From the NCBI RefSeq assembly GCF_032062105.1, contig NW_026928448.1:186001-250000 (forward strand): a stretch of 64,000 bases of DNA. Reading direction: 5' to 3'. The position numbers are program-made. Positions 1 to 44,900 of this stretch are shown here, piece after piece (within the stretch, counting starts at the first letter, position 1; each line of letters starts with the position of its first letter). This DNA is from Saccostrea cucullata (taxonomy: Eukaryota).

Positions 1-3000
1 TTAATTGCAACTTTTTCCTTCTCTGTGCAAATAAGTATTATTTTCTGAATTTATATGAATATCATGAAATTCTATTAGTTACGAAGGGATTTGAAAAATG
101 AAGTACACATTTTACTGAAATGTAAAGATAACAAACAGTTATCATTAAATTAAACAAATAATGAGCTGAGTAATCATGGACCTCTTAAAGATATTAGACA
201 TGGAATCAGGTGCTATGAAGGAGTAGGTTGCCCCCTGTCAACCGGTACATCGGTCACACATCTGTAAGTGCATGTGTTTGCAGGTGTACTGAACTTGTCA
301 TCAGTCTTTACAATACTAACGCATGAAATGAAGAAATTGGTAACAGTATTCAAATGTCAATATCAGGAACTTACCTGACGGTGAGGAAGAGGTGGTGGAC
401 AACAACCCTTTTCCTGCCCTATATAACAATTAATTATAGTTAAAATACAGCCAACAAGCAACATTTTCATTGTCATAAAAAATTGTCATTAAAATTTACA
501 AATATCATTTGGAAACTCCATTTCACATTAGTTTACATGTTCAATTTCTTTTATACAAATTTTAGCAAAACTTTCCAGTTTTAAAATGAAATTAGCTTTT
601 CTTATATATGTTATAAAAAAAATCAAAAGTAATTTGTTCCCATTTACCTATTTCTAATATTCATATTTCAAATTATTTTGAAATTTTTAAAAGTAAAATC
701 CATAATTTGAACTGAAACATTCTTAAATATTTGAAAAGGGAATTATTCCATATTTTACCTGTATTCACCTGCTTCATGGTCATATAGCCATCAGAGGTAT
801 CACCTAAATGTACATTAGGCCAAAAAATTAAAAAGAATTAACCATTGAAACATTGTAGCATGAAATACCAAATTTCTGTCATTATATATTTTTTCCACAC
901 TAAATTGGTATATAATCAGAGGAATATTTATGAAATACCGATCAGTTTACTGTCATCGCTTTGAAACGTTGCAAAGTTTTCAGGCGGTTGGATATTTGCA
1001 GCTATATCAGTATGACCTTCAGAGAGTGCAATCTGACTCGCTGTTTTGTCGTTCTTGTTTCTCATACAAACCGCAGCCTGGTATCCGGGGTATTTTTTAA
1101 GAGCTTCACAAAGTAGCTTTAATCCAAGTTTTGCACCGACGTGGAGAAGTGTTGGAAATTCTCTAGATGATTTCTTTTCTGTAAAAATAATTTTTCCCAT
1201 AATTCGTCCGATGTTTGGTCGTATTAATGACCGTTTGCAAATACAACCTATCTTTGGGTCGTATTATAACTGACATATTTCCTACCAATTGTAGGCAATT
1301 ATTTCTCTGTTATTTTGGCTACGGACTACTCAGTTTCTTTGAAAGAAATGTTTCGATGCAGAGGGTTGGCGGGAATTTGATTGTCGACAGAGTAAGCTTT
1401 TTTCCTCATCCACCTGATTTGAGGGGTCCTGGTCTCCGCCCTTTTCCCGATTCTTGATTTGAGATTTAACACTAATAATAAGTTTACTTTTACAAGATTC
1501 CATTTGAAGAATACTATTTAATAATTCTTTAAGTGATAGACTAATGGTATAGCTATAGCATGATCTATGAACTTGAATAAAAATAATTACATTTACAAAT
1601 TAGATTTTACCAGCCAAATTTATATAATATCAAAGTCTAAATGTCAGTATGGCACGTTATCTCTAATTGTTGATACTGCATTGTGTGGACAGGGGTCGGG
1701 GGGGGGGGGTATGTAAACAGATGCTTGTAAACGATGACCGTTACTTTTACCTATGCTGATACACTGTAGATAAATTTCTAGATTTGTCTATAAGGTTTAC
1801 TCTCTCATTACATATGATTTTCTGAACGATAATCCCTGAATGTATACCAGTCTGATTTAACAATATTAAATCAGCTGTTGAACTAATTATAACACAGTTT
1901 TATTATACTCACTCCACAAATGATCTCTAAAGTCTAACATCTCCAATCCTGAAAGGGGATTACTTCCGCTGGTCCCATTGGTTAGAATGTCTACAAGTTC
2001 ACGATCTAAAGAGTCGGGATCGTCACAGTCCATAGCTTGGAGGAAAAATTCAAGGGGATTCATCATGTCAGAAATCATGGATGAAAATCTGTCAATTTTG
2101 CTACTTATGATGAAACTTGTCTTTCCAGCAGAGACGCTGTTAGTGAAGATTTGCATTGTAATTTGTCCATCAGGCATCCCTGTTAAAGATTTGATCTGTT
2201 TAATATTTATGAAAAAAATGAATTTAAGCATCAAAATGTATTATTGTCAATTTTTTTTTAAATTCTTAAAAGTCATGTTAAAAATCATTTCAAATACTTT
2301 GGGTTGTCCAACCTAAATTAAAGTGCATTTTGAAATTGAAATTGTTGAAGAGAATGTATTAAATTACATTTTTCAAAAGTTATGGTGAAAGGAGTTTTAA
2401 AAACAACAGTTCAATCTAAGTTCTTGTTACATGTACATGTATGTACCTTTACATCTGTAATTAATGTTATGCGAGAGTAAAGATTTTACTTAACAATATT
2501 AGTAGTAGTTGTCTGTCATAGTTCTTACCTTCAGGTTTAAACATGTACGTCAAGTTGTTCAGTTCAGTACATTTTATCGTCTTTCGAAAATTATTTCTTT
2601 CAAGTAAAACAGTAACATCACCCTTAAGAATTTCTTTTTTGAAAATCACAACTATGTGTTCATTTGGCTACAAAATAACACAAATGATATCTTAAGAAGG
2701 TCTGTATTTACATGTACATTGAATTTATTAAAATTATACGGTATATTGATAAAAAAAATCAAATTGTAGTTATGAAATCATATTAAACTCACAGATGAAA
2801 TTCTTTTGGGATTTATTTTGAAGCTCAGAAGAACTGGAGGCGCATTGGGTGTTGAATCCATAAGTTCCATGATCCGGAGCAGCGCCATCTTGAAATCCTC
2901 GGAAGAGGTGCCGAGATGAATTGTGTTCCATGCACTCAAGTCCGAACATGATTCTTCCAAAACTTTTTCTGTGGATTTATTACTGATGCTAACACTTTCA

Positions 3001-41900: not shown

Positions 41901-44900
41901 ACATATTGAATATGAAAGACATAGCTACAATAAATGAAAAGTTATGGTAAAGGTTAAAGTTTTTGCGGAGAAACAGACCGCCAGTTTGACAGACAGACAA
42001 ACAGACGGACACGATAAACTATATACCCCCGAATCTTCGATTACAGGGAGATAAAAAGAAATGGTCTTCAATTAACTTTTCATATTATGATACAATATAA
42101 AGAAGAAGTTACAAAAATGAAAATGTTTGTTCCGATTTTCATATTAAATTCTCTGAAAAATATACTCAGAACTGGGTAAAATCGTGGAGTAAAACAAGAA
42201 TTAAGAAATGTAATGAATACTGTGTGCTTAATCAAAAGGTTATGTCTAATGTATAGTTTTTGCATTAGAATGTGTATTTTACACTAGCCCATAGCTTTAC
42301 AGAGCATATTTTTAGGTGTTATACCCACCCCGCCCCCTTACTTATTTAGGAGGAAGTTGATTATCAACAAAAGCAACAACAAAAAAACAACCCTACCTTT
42401 ATTTTTCTATAAGGAGGGACTAAAAATAAGCTTAAAATAATCTACTATTCTACTAATTTTCAACTGTTACTCTGCCACAATACTTTCAAGTATACCCCCA
42501 CCGACATTTAAAGTATGTTTTAATCATGGCGAAGTAAATTATGATATGATTGAACTTGTGTGAAGGCTTAACTTCATTTCAATATTTTATCTAGAGCCTC
42601 TTTCAGTATTATTGAAAGGTATAGAGTTTTATTTATATTTTTGCTTTCATTTATTTTTTGTTTGGTTTGATTTAATGTATTTTTTTTGGGGGGGGGGTTT
42701 AAAAATTTCCTCCTCTTTCATTGTCAAATAGGATTTGCCAAACTTTTACAAGCTAAAAGTTGAAATGAAGGAAAAATTAATTTTTCTATTAAAGAGTATT
42801 GGAACCTGATTGTTGCATGGTTTGATTTCTAAATACAAGTGGAATATCATTCTTTAAGCAAACACTATAAGGAGGAATATTAAAAAGAAATTTTATTTAC
42901 TTGACAATTAAAGAATCTCTTTTCACTTTAAAGGGGGTCATTTTTCAATGGGAGTCAATTTTTTATAGGACATACATATAAAATAATGACCCCTAGGACA
43001 CTTTTTCTACAAAAAATGATTTTTTTTCTACGGGTAGGGGGTCATTTTTTGTCGTTGAAAAATGACCCCCGGTCATTATTCGATGGGGGTCATTATTCGT
43101 CTTTACACCTGATAAACCATAAAATTGCTTATTTATAATTCAAAGTTTTGCTTTCTACATTAGAAACATCGCAAATATTGACTTTTATTTTATTCAAATT
43201 GATTTTCTGTGGTAAAATTATACATGATGCAATCATTTTGTATAAAAAAAAGTCACTTCCTCTTCCAAGTGTACATATATTAGTATTCTAACACGGTAAA
43301 GTCTCTGTAAATTTTAGCATATGTTGCTAAGGTGAGTTAAAGAACGACTAGCTTTACCGCTTACCCGTTTGTTAAATTTTTTTCGTTTGTCGTGTTTTTA
43401 TGTTGTTCGTTTTGCATTCATATATGTTTGTTAAGTACGTGGTCGTTGGTTGTTTAATCTACGAAAAGGTCCGTTGATTATGCATTTCATATCATTTCTT
43501 AAGTTTTTATGGTCATTGAAATTAAAATAATTGTTTGTTTTCTCATTATGGTATTTTTTGCCCTTTCCGCTGCCTATAAAAGAACCTAGCCTTCAAGAGT
43601 TATCAAGGACTACTGAGCTAGCTGGTAGTGGGGGATTATATCAGTAATGATATATCGAAGTTTTCAGAAAAGAGTTAGACAAACAAAAACATGTATGTAA
43701 AATTATTCATATATTGAAGTTTATGGAAAAACACCATTTAAGTATTTAATGTGTCAAGTGATGAAATTCAGTTACAACGTAATTGATCAAAGTCAGTTTA
43801 CCTAATTTAAAAATATGTGTATGTATGCTTGCTCTCACATCAGATTTTTTAAAGCTTTACCTTTGTATTTCTTAAAGTTCGGCTGTCGCCAAGCATTTAA
43901 GGATAAATAACACAAACAAACTTTTTTCAGAAATCAGCATTATTTTTCATAGATTTACATTTAAATTGACGTCCTGAATAATGTTTACCAAGTAGAGTGA
44001 GAGAATTATATAAGATTTTGTCATAAGGTTAAATAATTCTGCAAAATTTTGTAAGGAATTATATAGAAAGCAAAACAAAATCTCATATCTAAGCACCAAG
44101 GAAAACCTACGATTTCTTAATATTTAAGGGATTTATTATTTATGTCATTACAAATCAAAATCAGTCAAAAAATATATATCAACCCGCGCATCCATTTTTT
44201 GTTTGTGGTAAGTACCCTTAAAGAAACATAATAAATTAAATGTCAACATTATCTTCAACTACGAAGTAATTCAATAAAATTATTAATAAAAACTCTAGTG
44301 AAGATACAATCATGTTTTCCTATTCTCTGTACTATCTTGAGACAAATTATATTTATCTTTTTTCTTTTCAAAACAATTCATCATAAACATAACTTAAGTT
44401 GTAAGATGTATGTCCGTAAAATTTTCGTTATTGTATAACTTTTTCTTATTTGCCATTTAGTTGTTAAAGCTTGTCCTCAGGAATATAAATACATCGTATT
44501 AGAAATATAATTTGATTCCTATTCGTCTTGGCTGCGATTCTCACAAAAATGTACACATAGATACTACTTTTGCAATAATGCTATGTAAAAATATTCAGAT
44601 TATACATATATGTAGCAGGAAGTGATTACTATTCGAATGAATGCTAAACATACATGATCAGATTCAATCCCTATTACAATTAAGAACAAAAAAAAGTAAT
44701 ATTTAAGGATAAGTAAAGGGTTTACTAATACTTTAATATTTTTATAATTTTTTCTTGGCAGTTGAGCTATACAACTCTCTTATAAAGCGTTTAGGAAGCG
44801 ATGACACATTATTAATTATAAGCATGACGAAAACTCAAAGTTCAAATATACTCTTGTAACAGCAAAACAATAAGATCACTTATAGAGACCTGGGAACATG

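What the first reader, a model, noticed from the sequence alone, without database searches (positions are those of the whole stretch)
375..43290. Tandem expansion of BCAP/PIK3AP1-like genes (3 intact plus 1 pseudogene)
Seen: the three intact copies share exon sizes and phases in the core (DBB exons 130-139 and 264-267 nt; ankyrin exon 216-240 nt), while their TIR-like domains are strongly diverged and their tails are unalignable. Known: vertebrates have BCAP and BANK1 and Drosophila has Dof/stumps, so the family is normally low-copy; bivalves have expanded TLR and MyD88 repertoires. Inference: a birth-and-death expansion of the TLR-to-PI3K adaptor layer. Paralog C (~529 aa) is much shorter than vertebrate BCAP.
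Basis: partly seen in the sequence, partly recalled or inferred. Interest (0 to 1): 0.65.

Follow-up and report, generated by a model that had tools for sequence, protein, structure and literature searches.

The report
Oyster cluster of BCAP-like adaptor genes
Three half-size relatives of the vertebrate immune adaptor BCAP, plus one wrecked copy, sit head to tail in what looks like an oyster genome; it is a real but old and fairly ordinary gene-family expansion whose signalling role is still only inferred.

Summary
Four copies of one gene lie on the minus strand between 375 and 43290. Three are open: A, B and C. The fourth is a relic of exons 1-2, split by a 3.1-kb element with inverted ends.

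Each open copy has a Pfam DBB hit above the curated cut-off. All three share exon sizes (139/130/130, 267/264/267 and 240/231/216 nt), phases and AG/GT sites. A stored protein, P0011, matches eight exons of B, five of them at 100%.

The N-terminal exon matches no TIR model by sequence. Its AlphaFold model (pLDDT 77) has human BCAP TIR, 5FOR, as best of 350,542 PDB chains, by a thin margin.

- The TIR exon is no more diverged than the other exons.
- The tails share short motifs.
- C adds up to about 484 aa, not 529.
- B has no start codon that I could find, and A's 3' end is unresolved.
- Each copy is closer to a protein from elsewhere than to its neighbours, so the duplications are old.

The parts
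3686..3704 (-). Copy A, candidate start exon: ATG plus 5 codons plus 1 base (MSFTRK+G), donor AAG|GTAAGC
   Evidence: It has the same length and phase as the N-terminus of orthologue P0018 (MSRTSK|G), with 4 of 6 residues identical. Inference: no transcript data.
2793..3259 (-). Copy A exon 1 (467 nt): TIR-like alpha/beta domain
   Evidence: 71% identical to P0018 over 158 aa. 25% identical to C exon 1, E 1.8e-12. Splice sites.
2529..2667 (-). Copy A exon 2 (139 nt): first half of DBB
   Evidence: Read. 83% identical to P0018 residues 164-209.
1913..2179 (-). Copy A exon 3 (267 nt): second half of DBB
   Evidence: Pfam DBB at 30.8 bits, E 3.3e-7. Splice sites.
939..1178 (-). Copy A exon 4 (240 nt, or 228 nt with the donor at 951): ankyrin-like
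   Evidence: 39% identical to C exon 4, E 3e-15.
759..803 (-). Copy A micro-exon (45 nt) holding a YMTM (YxxM) motif
   Evidence: The same motif is in orthologue P0018 (GYMTMN).
375..418 (-). Copy A exon (44 nt) holding PPPLPHR (PxxPxR). It ends in a donor, and the 3' end of A beyond it is unresolved.
   Evidence: P0018 has PPALPER and P0008 has PPPLPER at the aligned place.
11981..12483 (-). Copy B exon 1 (503 nt from the acceptor at 12483): TIR-like domain. The ORF has no ATG upstream of the domain.
   Evidence: P0011 matches at 100% from its internal Met (12262-11981).
11394..11523 (-). Copy B exon 2 (130 nt): first half of DBB
   Evidence: P0011 matches 44 of 44 aa.
9997..10260 (-). Copy B exon 3 (264 nt): second half of DBB
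   Evidence: Pfam DBB at 36.7 bits. The P0011 junctions are reproduced.
9491..9721 (-). Copy B exon 4 (231 nt): ankyrin-like
   Evidence: P0011 matches 78 of 78 aa.
5398..8925 (-). Copy B tail exons: 8925-8864, 8553-8493, 5870-5806 and 5478 down to 5419 (P0011) or 5398 (read-through)
   Evidence: The tail holds RRPT, PAPRPPIR and, in the read-through, SRDSGLS.
35980..36489 (-). Copy C exon 1 coding part (510 nt, ATG at 36489): YMPM leader plus TIR-like domain
   Evidence: 70% identical to S. echinata P0001. AlphaFold model pLDDT 77.2. Foldseek top hit 5FOR.
35525..35654 (-). Copy C exon 2 (130 nt): first half of DBB
   Evidence: Weak Pfam DBB match to profile positions 9-56, E 0.054. 75% identical to P0001.
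34540..34806 (-). Copy C exon 3 (267 nt): second half of DBB
   Evidence: Pfam DBB at 39.6 bits, E 6.2e-10. 82% identical to P0001.
34069..34284 (-). Copy C exon 4 (216 nt): ankyrin-like
   Evidence: 81% identical to P0001.
32109..33569 (-). Copy C tail exons: 33569-33534, 33114-33044, 32694-32634, 32394-32324 and 32201-32112, then the stop codon
   Evidence: The exons are guided by weak, short matches to the tails of P0001 and O. edulis P0002. The phases close.
43120..43290 (-). Pseudogene: 5' relic of exon 1, with an in-frame stop
   Evidence: 75% nt identity to C 36357-36301.
39996..43117 (.). Inserted element of about 3.1 kb that splits the pseudogene's exon 1. It has 76-nt inverted ends (39992-40067 and 43037-43112, 92% complementary). 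A palindromic block of 21-bp repeats is nested inside (40182-41145).
39306..39995 (-). Pseudogene: 3' relic of exon 1 (frameshift between 39952 and 39917) and relic of exon 2 (39395-39306). No donor is kept and no exon 3 or 4 follows.
   Evidence: 68% nt identity to C over 320 nt and 82% over 164 nt.

Best explanation
This is an old, clustered family of compact members (about 450-485 aa) of the Dof/BCAP/BANK (DBB) adaptor family, in what looks like an oyster genome. There are three open paralogues (A, B, C) and one dead copy next to C.

Each gene is built as one exon per module:
- Exon 1 encodes a five-strand alpha/beta domain best read as a BCAP-type 'cryptic' TIR.
- Exons 2 and 3 encode the DBB domain.
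- Exon 4 encodes a degenerate ankyrin unit.
- Several micro-exons encode a short disordered tail with short linear motifs.

Likely mechanism (inferred, not shown). These are cytosolic scaffolds. The TIR-like domain would dock to TIR-bearing receptors or adaptors. A tyrosine in a YxxM motif, once phosphorylated, would recruit the SH2 domains of the PI3K regulatory subunit. That motif is YMPM just before the domain in C and YMTM in the tail of A. PxxPxR motifs in A and B would recruit SH3 proteins.

I put about 0.85 on the family identity and cluster anatomy, and about 0.35 on the TLR-to-PI3K mechanism.
For: SHOWN.
- DBB above the Pfam cut-off in 3 of 3 copies. DBB also in 4 of 4 full-length relatives matched to A, B or C: P0001 E 2.9e-15 and P0002 E 2.3e-15, P0011, which matches B, E 6.2e-15, and P0018 E 3.3e-13.
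- A family profile (A2) hits human BCAP DBB, 6SWS, at E 1.7e-4, and designed ankyrin proteins from E 1e-3.
- The AlphaFold2 model of C exon 1 with a 20-row alignment has pLDDT 77.2 and pTM 0.73. Its strand and helix order is that of a flavodoxin-like TIR fold.
- Of 350,542 PDB chains, the best Foldseek match is 5FOR (E 2e-4, TM 0.50/0.61) and the second is the plant RUN1 TIR. 5FOR is the human BCAP TIR (PMC5241739, passages read).
- Exon sizes, phases and AG/GT sites are shared.
- Motifs. A YxxM lies in the leader before the domain in 10 of 12 B/C-type sequences that have a leader of 10 or more residues. These rows are related, and two pairs are identical or nearly so. YMTM is in the tail of 2 of 2 A-type sequences that have a tail.
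- NCBI's name for the O. edulis relative is BANK-like.

INFERRED.
- Binding of p85 to phospho-YxxM and of TIR to TIR is taken from vertebrate BCAP (PMC5241739, passages read).
Against: - There is no sequence-level TIR signal at all. Pfam finds none at E<=1 on the exons, and 0 of 10 members match at E<=10. PDB phmmer finds none. The two profiles find no TIR chain at E<=10.
- The Foldseek margin is thin. Non-TIR flavodoxin-like folds (Rag GTPase, GlmS isomerase) follow at E 1e-3, and TM is only 0.5-0.6. The single-sequence model was poor, at pLDDT 55.
- Ankyrin evidence is weak. No exon hits Pfam, and P0018 hits Ank_2 at 17.8 bits, below the 27.3 cut-off.
- There is only one YxxM per protein. 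By my rough estimate chance gives about 0.3 per 450 aa.
- B has a YxxM only inside the DBB fold (YQEM). It has no identified start codon.
- The proteins lack the long C-terminal half of vertebrate BCAP.
- No expression or binding data were available.
Confidence: 0.8

Rival explanations
1. The same family, but working like Drosophila Dof: docking proteins for receptor tyrosine kinases such as FGFR, not for TLR signalling.
For: Dof/PI3KAP orthologues are reported across Eumetazoa, including Crassostrea gigas and Lottia. In Drosophila, Dof docks FGFR through the DBB region (PMC7260276, passages read). YxxM and PxxPxR motifs suit any tyrosine-kinase scaffold.
Against: The best structural match of exon 1 is the BCAP TIR, and a TIR suggests TIR partners. 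A clam gene and an oyster gene annotated PIK3AP1 are reported in immune settings (PMC4234419 and bioRxiv 10.64898/2026.05.15.723513, passages read). Neither paper is tied to this locus.
Confidence: 0.2
2. Short decoy or damping forms. They keep the TIR-DBB-ankyrin half that docks and self-associates but lack most of the effector-recruiting tail. They would compete with a canonical long adaptor rather than activate PI3K.
For: Their length is about 450-485 aa by exon arithmetic and by the relatives, which are 441-487 aa. The lamprey BCAP is 726 aa (PMC9695028, abstract in the search listing). B has no YxxM outside the DBB fold. The D-type relatives P0016 and P0022 have none, and P0015 has one only inside the DBB.
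Against: A and the C clade keep a YxxM at a conserved position, and A and B keep a PxxPxR. I could not show that a long canonical copy exists in this genome.
Confidence: 0.2
3. The N-terminal domain is a generic flavodoxin-like module, not a TIR. On this reading the genes are DBB-ankyrin scaffolds with an unrelated head.
For: No TIR signal by sequence. Many non-TIR flavodoxin-like folds score within five-fold of the top Foldseek E-value.
Against: The top two of 350,542 chains are TIR domains, and the first is BCAP's own. The domain sits at the same place as the TIR of BCAP. Most bilaterian Dof/PI3KAP proteins are reported to have an N-terminal TIR (PMC7260276, passage read).
Confidence: 0.15
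4. An assembly artefact, or collapsed or duplicated haplotypes, rather than true paralogues.
For: None found.
Against: The copies are 20-58% identical per exon. Nucleotide similarity between open copies is limited to one 141-nt stretch at 70%. Each copy has its own closer relative elsewhere.
Confidence: 0.02

Closest known systems
Vertebrate BCAP (PIK3AP1)
   Same: Domain order is TIR-like, DBB, then ankyrin. The DBB is matched by Pfam and by the solved BCAP DBB, 6SWS. The best fold match of exon 1 is the BCAP TIR, 5FOR. YxxM and proline-rich motifs are present.
   Different: About 450-485 aa, against 726 aa in lamprey (PMC9695028, abstract in the listing) and about 800 aa in human (recalled). 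There is one YxxM instead of four (PMC5241739). In the C clade the YxxM lies in front of the TIR instead of behind it. There is no long C-terminal region. The TIR is not recognisable by sequence.
Vertebrate BANK1
   Same: NCBI names the O. edulis relative 'B-cell scaffold protein with ankyrin repeats-like'. It shares the DBB plus ankyrin core.
   Different: No test here separates BANK-like from BCAP-like. The oyster genes probably branched before the vertebrate BCAP/BANK1 split. That is inference, since no outgroup was available for the tree.
Drosophila Dof/stumps and cnidarian Dof/PI3KAP
   Same: DBB plus ankyrin scaffolds. Short forms exist: Hydra Dof is 464-598 aa (PMC7260276, passage read).
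   Different: Cnidarian Dof lacks the N-terminal TIR (same paper). The oyster genes keep a TIR-like head. Dof is single-copy in flies (recalled), whereas here there are at least three open paralogues plus a further clade elsewhere (P0013-P0016, P0022).

Membership tests
Dof/BCAP/BANK (DBB) adaptor family | DBB domain (Pfam PF14545) | tested here: met
   3 of 3 copies score above the 22.2-bit cut-off on exon 3 alone. The full domain (profile positions 2-137) is matched in P0011, which matches B, and in P0018 and P0001. Profile A2 hits 6SWS at E 1.7e-4.
Dof/BCAP/BANK (DBB) adaptor family | Ankyrin repeats directly after the DBB | tested here: inconclusive
   None of the 3 exon-4 ORFs hits Pfam at E<=1. 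P0018 hits Ank_2 at 17.8 bits, below the 27.3 cut-off. The family profile hits designed ankyrin proteins at E 1e-3 to 0.1.
BCAP/BANK type (bilaterian) | N-terminal TIR domain | tested here: inconclusive
   At fold level, the model has pLDDT 77.2 and its top Foldseek hit is 5FOR at E 2e-4, TM 0.50/0.61, followed by the RUN1 TIR. By sequence there is no TIR hit. Only copy C was modelled. A and B are tied to it by homology.
BCAP (PI3K adaptor function) | YxxM motifs that bind p85 SH2 after tyrosine phosphorylation | tested here: inconclusive
   One motif each in C (YMPM, leader) and A (YMTM, tail micro-exon). In B the only one is inside the DBB fold. The position is conserved among relatives. Phosphorylation and binding cannot be tested with these tools.
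BCAP | Long C-terminal half with proline-rich and coiled-coil regions; total length about 700-800 aa | tested here: not met
   By exon arithmetic C is 484 aa and A and B are shorter. Relatives are 441-487 aa. Only short PxxPxR motifs are found, in A and B.
BCAP | Self-association through DBB and ankyrin | not testable with these tools
   This needs a binding experiment. See Tried and rejected for the one job that was sent.

The most novel reading that the evidence does not exclude
Oysters carry a lineage-restricted family of half-size BCAP-like adaptors with at least four clades, three of them in this cluster. Their TIR has drifted beyond the reach of sequence models, so censuses of TIR-domain proteins based on HMMs would miss them. 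Their PI3K-recruiting YxxM has moved to the front of the TIR in one clade and into a tail micro-exon in another. The paralogues would then wire different members of the expanded bivalve TLR/MyD88 repertoire to PI3K, or damp them, in a combinatorial way.
Probability: 0.2. Interest if true: 0.6.

Novelty: new member of a known kind. Interest (0 to 1): 0.4.

Why it matters
Bivalves are known for very large TLR repertoires (PMC10279657, title and abstract in a search listing). The layer of adaptors below the receptors is less well mapped.

If these compact TIR-DBB-ankyrin genes do link TIR signalling to PI3K, they would add an unrecognised and expanded adaptor class to oyster innate immunity. They would also show that cryptic TIR domains escape HMM-based censuses.

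As it stands, the finding is a well-supported gene-family annotation, with corrected gene models and a dated pseudogene. It is not a new mechanism.

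Tried and rejected
- **Sequence routes to a TIR call** all came back empty. These were Pfam on the exon ORFs, Pfam on 10 family members at E<=10 (0 of 10 with any TIR family), phmmer of C exon 1 against PDB, a whole-family profile and a TIR-only profile.
- **Single-sequence AlphaFold model** of C exon 1 was too poor to use (pLDDT 55.4). It was replaced by the model built with an alignment.
- **Complex prediction** on two copies of the DBB region (residues 88-226 of stored protein P0011) gave 'no answer', score 0.02 against a mark of 0.32. 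It is not used as evidence either way.
- **ESM Atlas**: the window's own exon is not held. The stored homologue P0001 gave no usable hit and has no model.
- **Family census.** The word-indexed searches found 2, 9 and 5 proteins. All four organism-named proteins are from Ostreidae. No canonical long BCAP-like protein came up, but these searches are too insensitive for that to count as absence.
- **Start exon of B.** A scan of 12518-16500 for ATG-to-donor exons in the right phase gave only three weak candidates, with no likeness to P0008's N-terminus.
- **3' end of A.** An ORF at 213-257 faintly resembles the RRPT region of P0018 but is in the wrong phase after the exon that ends at 375. Left unresolved.
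- **Target-site duplication** of the 3.1-kb insertion: none is visible.
- **Pfam on 16 other ORFs** of the window: 0 hits.
- **Rfam and tRNA scans**: 0 hits.
Protein lengths come from adding exon sizes.

Full report
**What the window is.** It is 64 kb of AT-rich DNA, 27-37% G+C in 2-kb steps, with no N. It has eukaryotic exon-intron genes. The best named protein matches are from oysters: Saccostrea echinata, S. cucullata and Ostrea edulis. So the window is most likely from an oyster or a close relative. I did not determine the species.

**Rule kept.** Every search with window sequence was made exon by exon. I built and searched no joined spliced model. Protein lengths below are sums of exon sizes. 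Full-length comparisons used proteins that the libraries returned.

**The observation.** Four related copies lie on the minus strand.

- *DBB.* The ORFs holding the 264-267-nt exon hit Pfam DBB (PF14545) above the curated cut-off in all three open copies. The scores are A 30.8 bits, B 36.7 bits and C 39.6 bits, against a cut-off of 22.2.
- *Paralogy.* An all-against-all BLASTP of the 2151 stop-to-stop ORFs of 20 aa or more shows paralogy for each of four exon classes, with E-values from 1e-11 to 5e-51.
- *Exon sizes.* Splice-site inspection and a summary script give these sizes:
  - A: 467, 139, 267, 240, 45 and 44 nt.
  - B: 503, 130, 264, 231, 62, 61 and 65 nt, plus a last exon.
  - C: 510, 130, 267, 216, 36, 71, 61, 71 and 90 nt.
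- *Phases and sites.* The phase is 0 after exon 1 and 1 after exons 2-4 in all three copies. Every internal site is AG/GT.
- *Independent check.* The stored library protein P0011 (386 aa) matches B at 100% over its exon 1, 2, 4, 7 and 8 stretches and at 80-97% over exons 3, 5 and 6, where the alignments run past the exon ends.

**The pseudogene.** Relics of exon 1 lie at 43191-43120, 40014-39952 and 39917-39762. A relic of exon 2 lies at 39395-39306. They carry an in-frame stop and a frameshift. The exon-2 relic keeps no donor, and no exon 3 or 4 follows.

The relic is closest to C: 82% nt identity over 164 nt in exon 2, and 68-75% in exon 1. Its exon 1 is split by an element of about 3.1 kb. 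That element has 76-nt inverted ends that are 92% complementary, and a nested palindrome of 21-bp repeats. I saw no target-site duplication.

1. Exon 1 is not specially diverged. Per-exon identities for E1/E2/E3/E4 are A-B 25/26/20/32%, A-C 27/38/33/37% and B-C 48/54/58/48%. A is simply a distant paralogue throughout.
2. The tails are not unalignable. They share short motifs:
   - PPxLPxR, seen in A, P0018 and P0008.
   - A basic R-R-P stretch.
   - SRDSGxS near the C-terminus, seen in P0002, P0019-P0021 and P0023, in B's read-through at 5439-5410, and as STDSGFS in C.
3. C adds up to 1452 nt, or 484 aa, when its tail exons are placed by weak matches to the O. edulis (485 aa) and S. echinata (441 aa) relatives. 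That is not about 529 aa. A further exon after a possible donor at 32142 cannot be excluded.
4. 'Intact' needs qualifying.
   - C has its ATG at 36489.
   - A has no ATG in exon 1. A 19-nt exon at 3704-3686 encodes MSFTRK plus one base, with donor AAG|GTAAGC. It fits the N-terminus of orthologue P0018 (MSRTSK|G) in length, phase and 4 of 6 residues. A's 3' end after the donor at 375 is unresolved and may run off the window.
   - B has no ATG upstream of the domain in exon 1. No convincing start exon was found, and P0011 starts at an internal Met inside the domain.

**What the domains are.**

- *DBB: firm.* The full domain is matched in P0011 (E 6.2e-15), in the A-type orthologue P0018 (3.3e-13) and in the C-type orthologue P0001 (2.9e-15). 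A family profile hits the solved DBB of human BCAP, 6SWS, at E 1.7e-4.
- *Ankyrin: weak but consistent.* The profile hits designed ankyrin proteins from E 1e-3. There is one sub-threshold Pfam Ank_2 hit and no exon-level hit.
- *The N-terminal exon: no TIR signal by sequence.* Nothing came from Pfam on the exons, from Pfam on 10 members (0 of 10), from phmmer or from two profiles against PDB.
- *The N-terminal exon: fold evidence.* With a 20-row alignment, AlphaFold2 gives pLDDT 77.2 and a five-strand, five-helix alternating fold. Foldseek against 350,542 PDB chains puts 5FOR first (E 2e-4, TM 0.50/0.61) and the plant RUN1 TIR second. Non-TIR flavodoxin-like folds follow from E 1e-3. 5FOR is the 'cryptic' TIR of human BCAP (PMC5241739, passages read).

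Taken with the domain order, a BCAP-type TIR is the best reading, but the margin is thin.

**Age and spread.**

- The one full-library search, with C exon 1, found only 16 clusters at E<=1e-3 among 1.84 billion representatives.
- I built a tree of the exon-1 domain with 23 rows. P0011 and P0023 were dropped for low coverage.
- The tree puts A with P0018 and P0017 (100/100), B with P0007-P0012 (93/97) and C with S. echinata P0001 (92/99). A fourth clade (P0013-P0016, P0022; 100/99) has no member in this window. The tree program warns that the long branches of the A clade and the fourth clade may attract each other.
- The duplications therefore predate the split from the sources of those proteins. 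This is an old family with one recorded death, not a recent burst.
- It is also not strictly tandem. B and C are about 19.6 kb apart, with an unrelated plus-strand gene between them.

**How it likely works.** Shown: the architecture and the motifs. Inferred: the function.

- C carries YMPM six residues into the protein, just ahead of the domain.
- A YxxM lies in that leader in 10 of 12 B/C-type sequences that have a leader of 10 or more residues. The rows are related, and two pairs are identical or nearly so.
- A and its orthologue carry YMTM in a tail micro-exon.
- B has a YxxM only inside the DBB fold.
- In vertebrate BCAP, phosphorylated YxxM binds the p85 SH2 domains, and the TIR binds TLR and MAL TIR domains (PMC5241739).

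The most likely mechanism is therefore a scaffold that couples TIR signalling to PI3K. I give it about 0.35.

The rivals are a Dof-like role at receptor tyrosine kinases (PMC7260276), short damping forms, and a non-TIR head.

A clam gene and a Pacific oyster gene annotated PIK3AP1 are reported in immune settings (PMC4234419; bioRxiv 10.64898/2026.05.15.723513; passages read). Neither is tied to this locus.

**Novelty.** The genes are already in public protein sets (P0011; NCBI names). I found no paper on an oyster expansion of this family. The searches were:
- BCAP, oyster, TIR (3 papers, none relevant);
-;
- PIK3AP1, Crassostrea (1 paper);
-;
-.

The survey of bivalve TIR-domain proteins that I recall (Gerdol and colleagues, 2017) was not seen. 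Supplements were closed.

Verdict: these are new members of a known family, with corrected gene models. Interest is moderate.

Noticed in passing
window 20653-21051, 47525-47791, 50685-51101 (+): Three first-exon-like ORFs of a second small family sit on the opposite strand, interleaved with the BCAP-like genes. They share an M..IPT.KE start and a helical, coiled-coil-like stretch, and are 27-32% identical (E 3e-5 and 4e-4). No Pfam family passes its cut-off.
   Followed up: partly
window 53505-53789 and 54299-54532 (-): Two exons of a fibrinogen-related gene. Pfam Fibrinogen_C at E 7.9e-20 and 4.3e-13.
   Followed up: partly
window 5398-5478 (-): Stored protein P0011 ends copy B by splicing at 5418 (...SRDSV). 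Reading through instead gives ...SRDSGLSVYLI and a stop, which keeps the SRDSGxS motif seen near the C-terminus of relatives. The stored model's end may be wrong, or an alternative form.
   Followed up: partly
window 29.3-30.3 kb, 52.8-53.4 kb, 56.5-57.4 kb, 59.8-60.1 kb, 63.7-63.96 kb (+): Dispersed repeat fragments with open frames that are 55-90% identical to each other. They look like a transposable-element family. Pfam found nothing on the eight ORFs that I tested from them.
   Followed up: partly
window 58.5-60.1 kb and 62.7-63.96 kb (+): Two collinear runs of ORF matches, 50-88% identical, suggest a local segmental duplication or two copies of one element.
   Followed up: no
window 10434-10552 and 41816-41929: A 120-nt stretch in an intron of copy B is 77% identical to a stretch inside the element that splits the pseudogene. 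It is probably a shared small repeat.
   Followed up: no
window 40182-41145: A palindromic block of about 960 nt is nested in the insertion. Its arms of 21-bp tandem repeats face each other, and its outer ends are 47 nt long and 96% complementary.
   Followed up: partly
window 213-257 (-): A short ORF end (…TDVPVDRGQPTPS, then a stop) faintly resembles the RRPT region of A's orthologue P0018. It is out of phase with A's exon that ends at 375. It could be a frameshifted last exon of A, or chance.
   Followed up: partly
window 4088-4128 and 46459-46505: Microsatellites: (CT)20 and (TTG)16.
   Followed up: no
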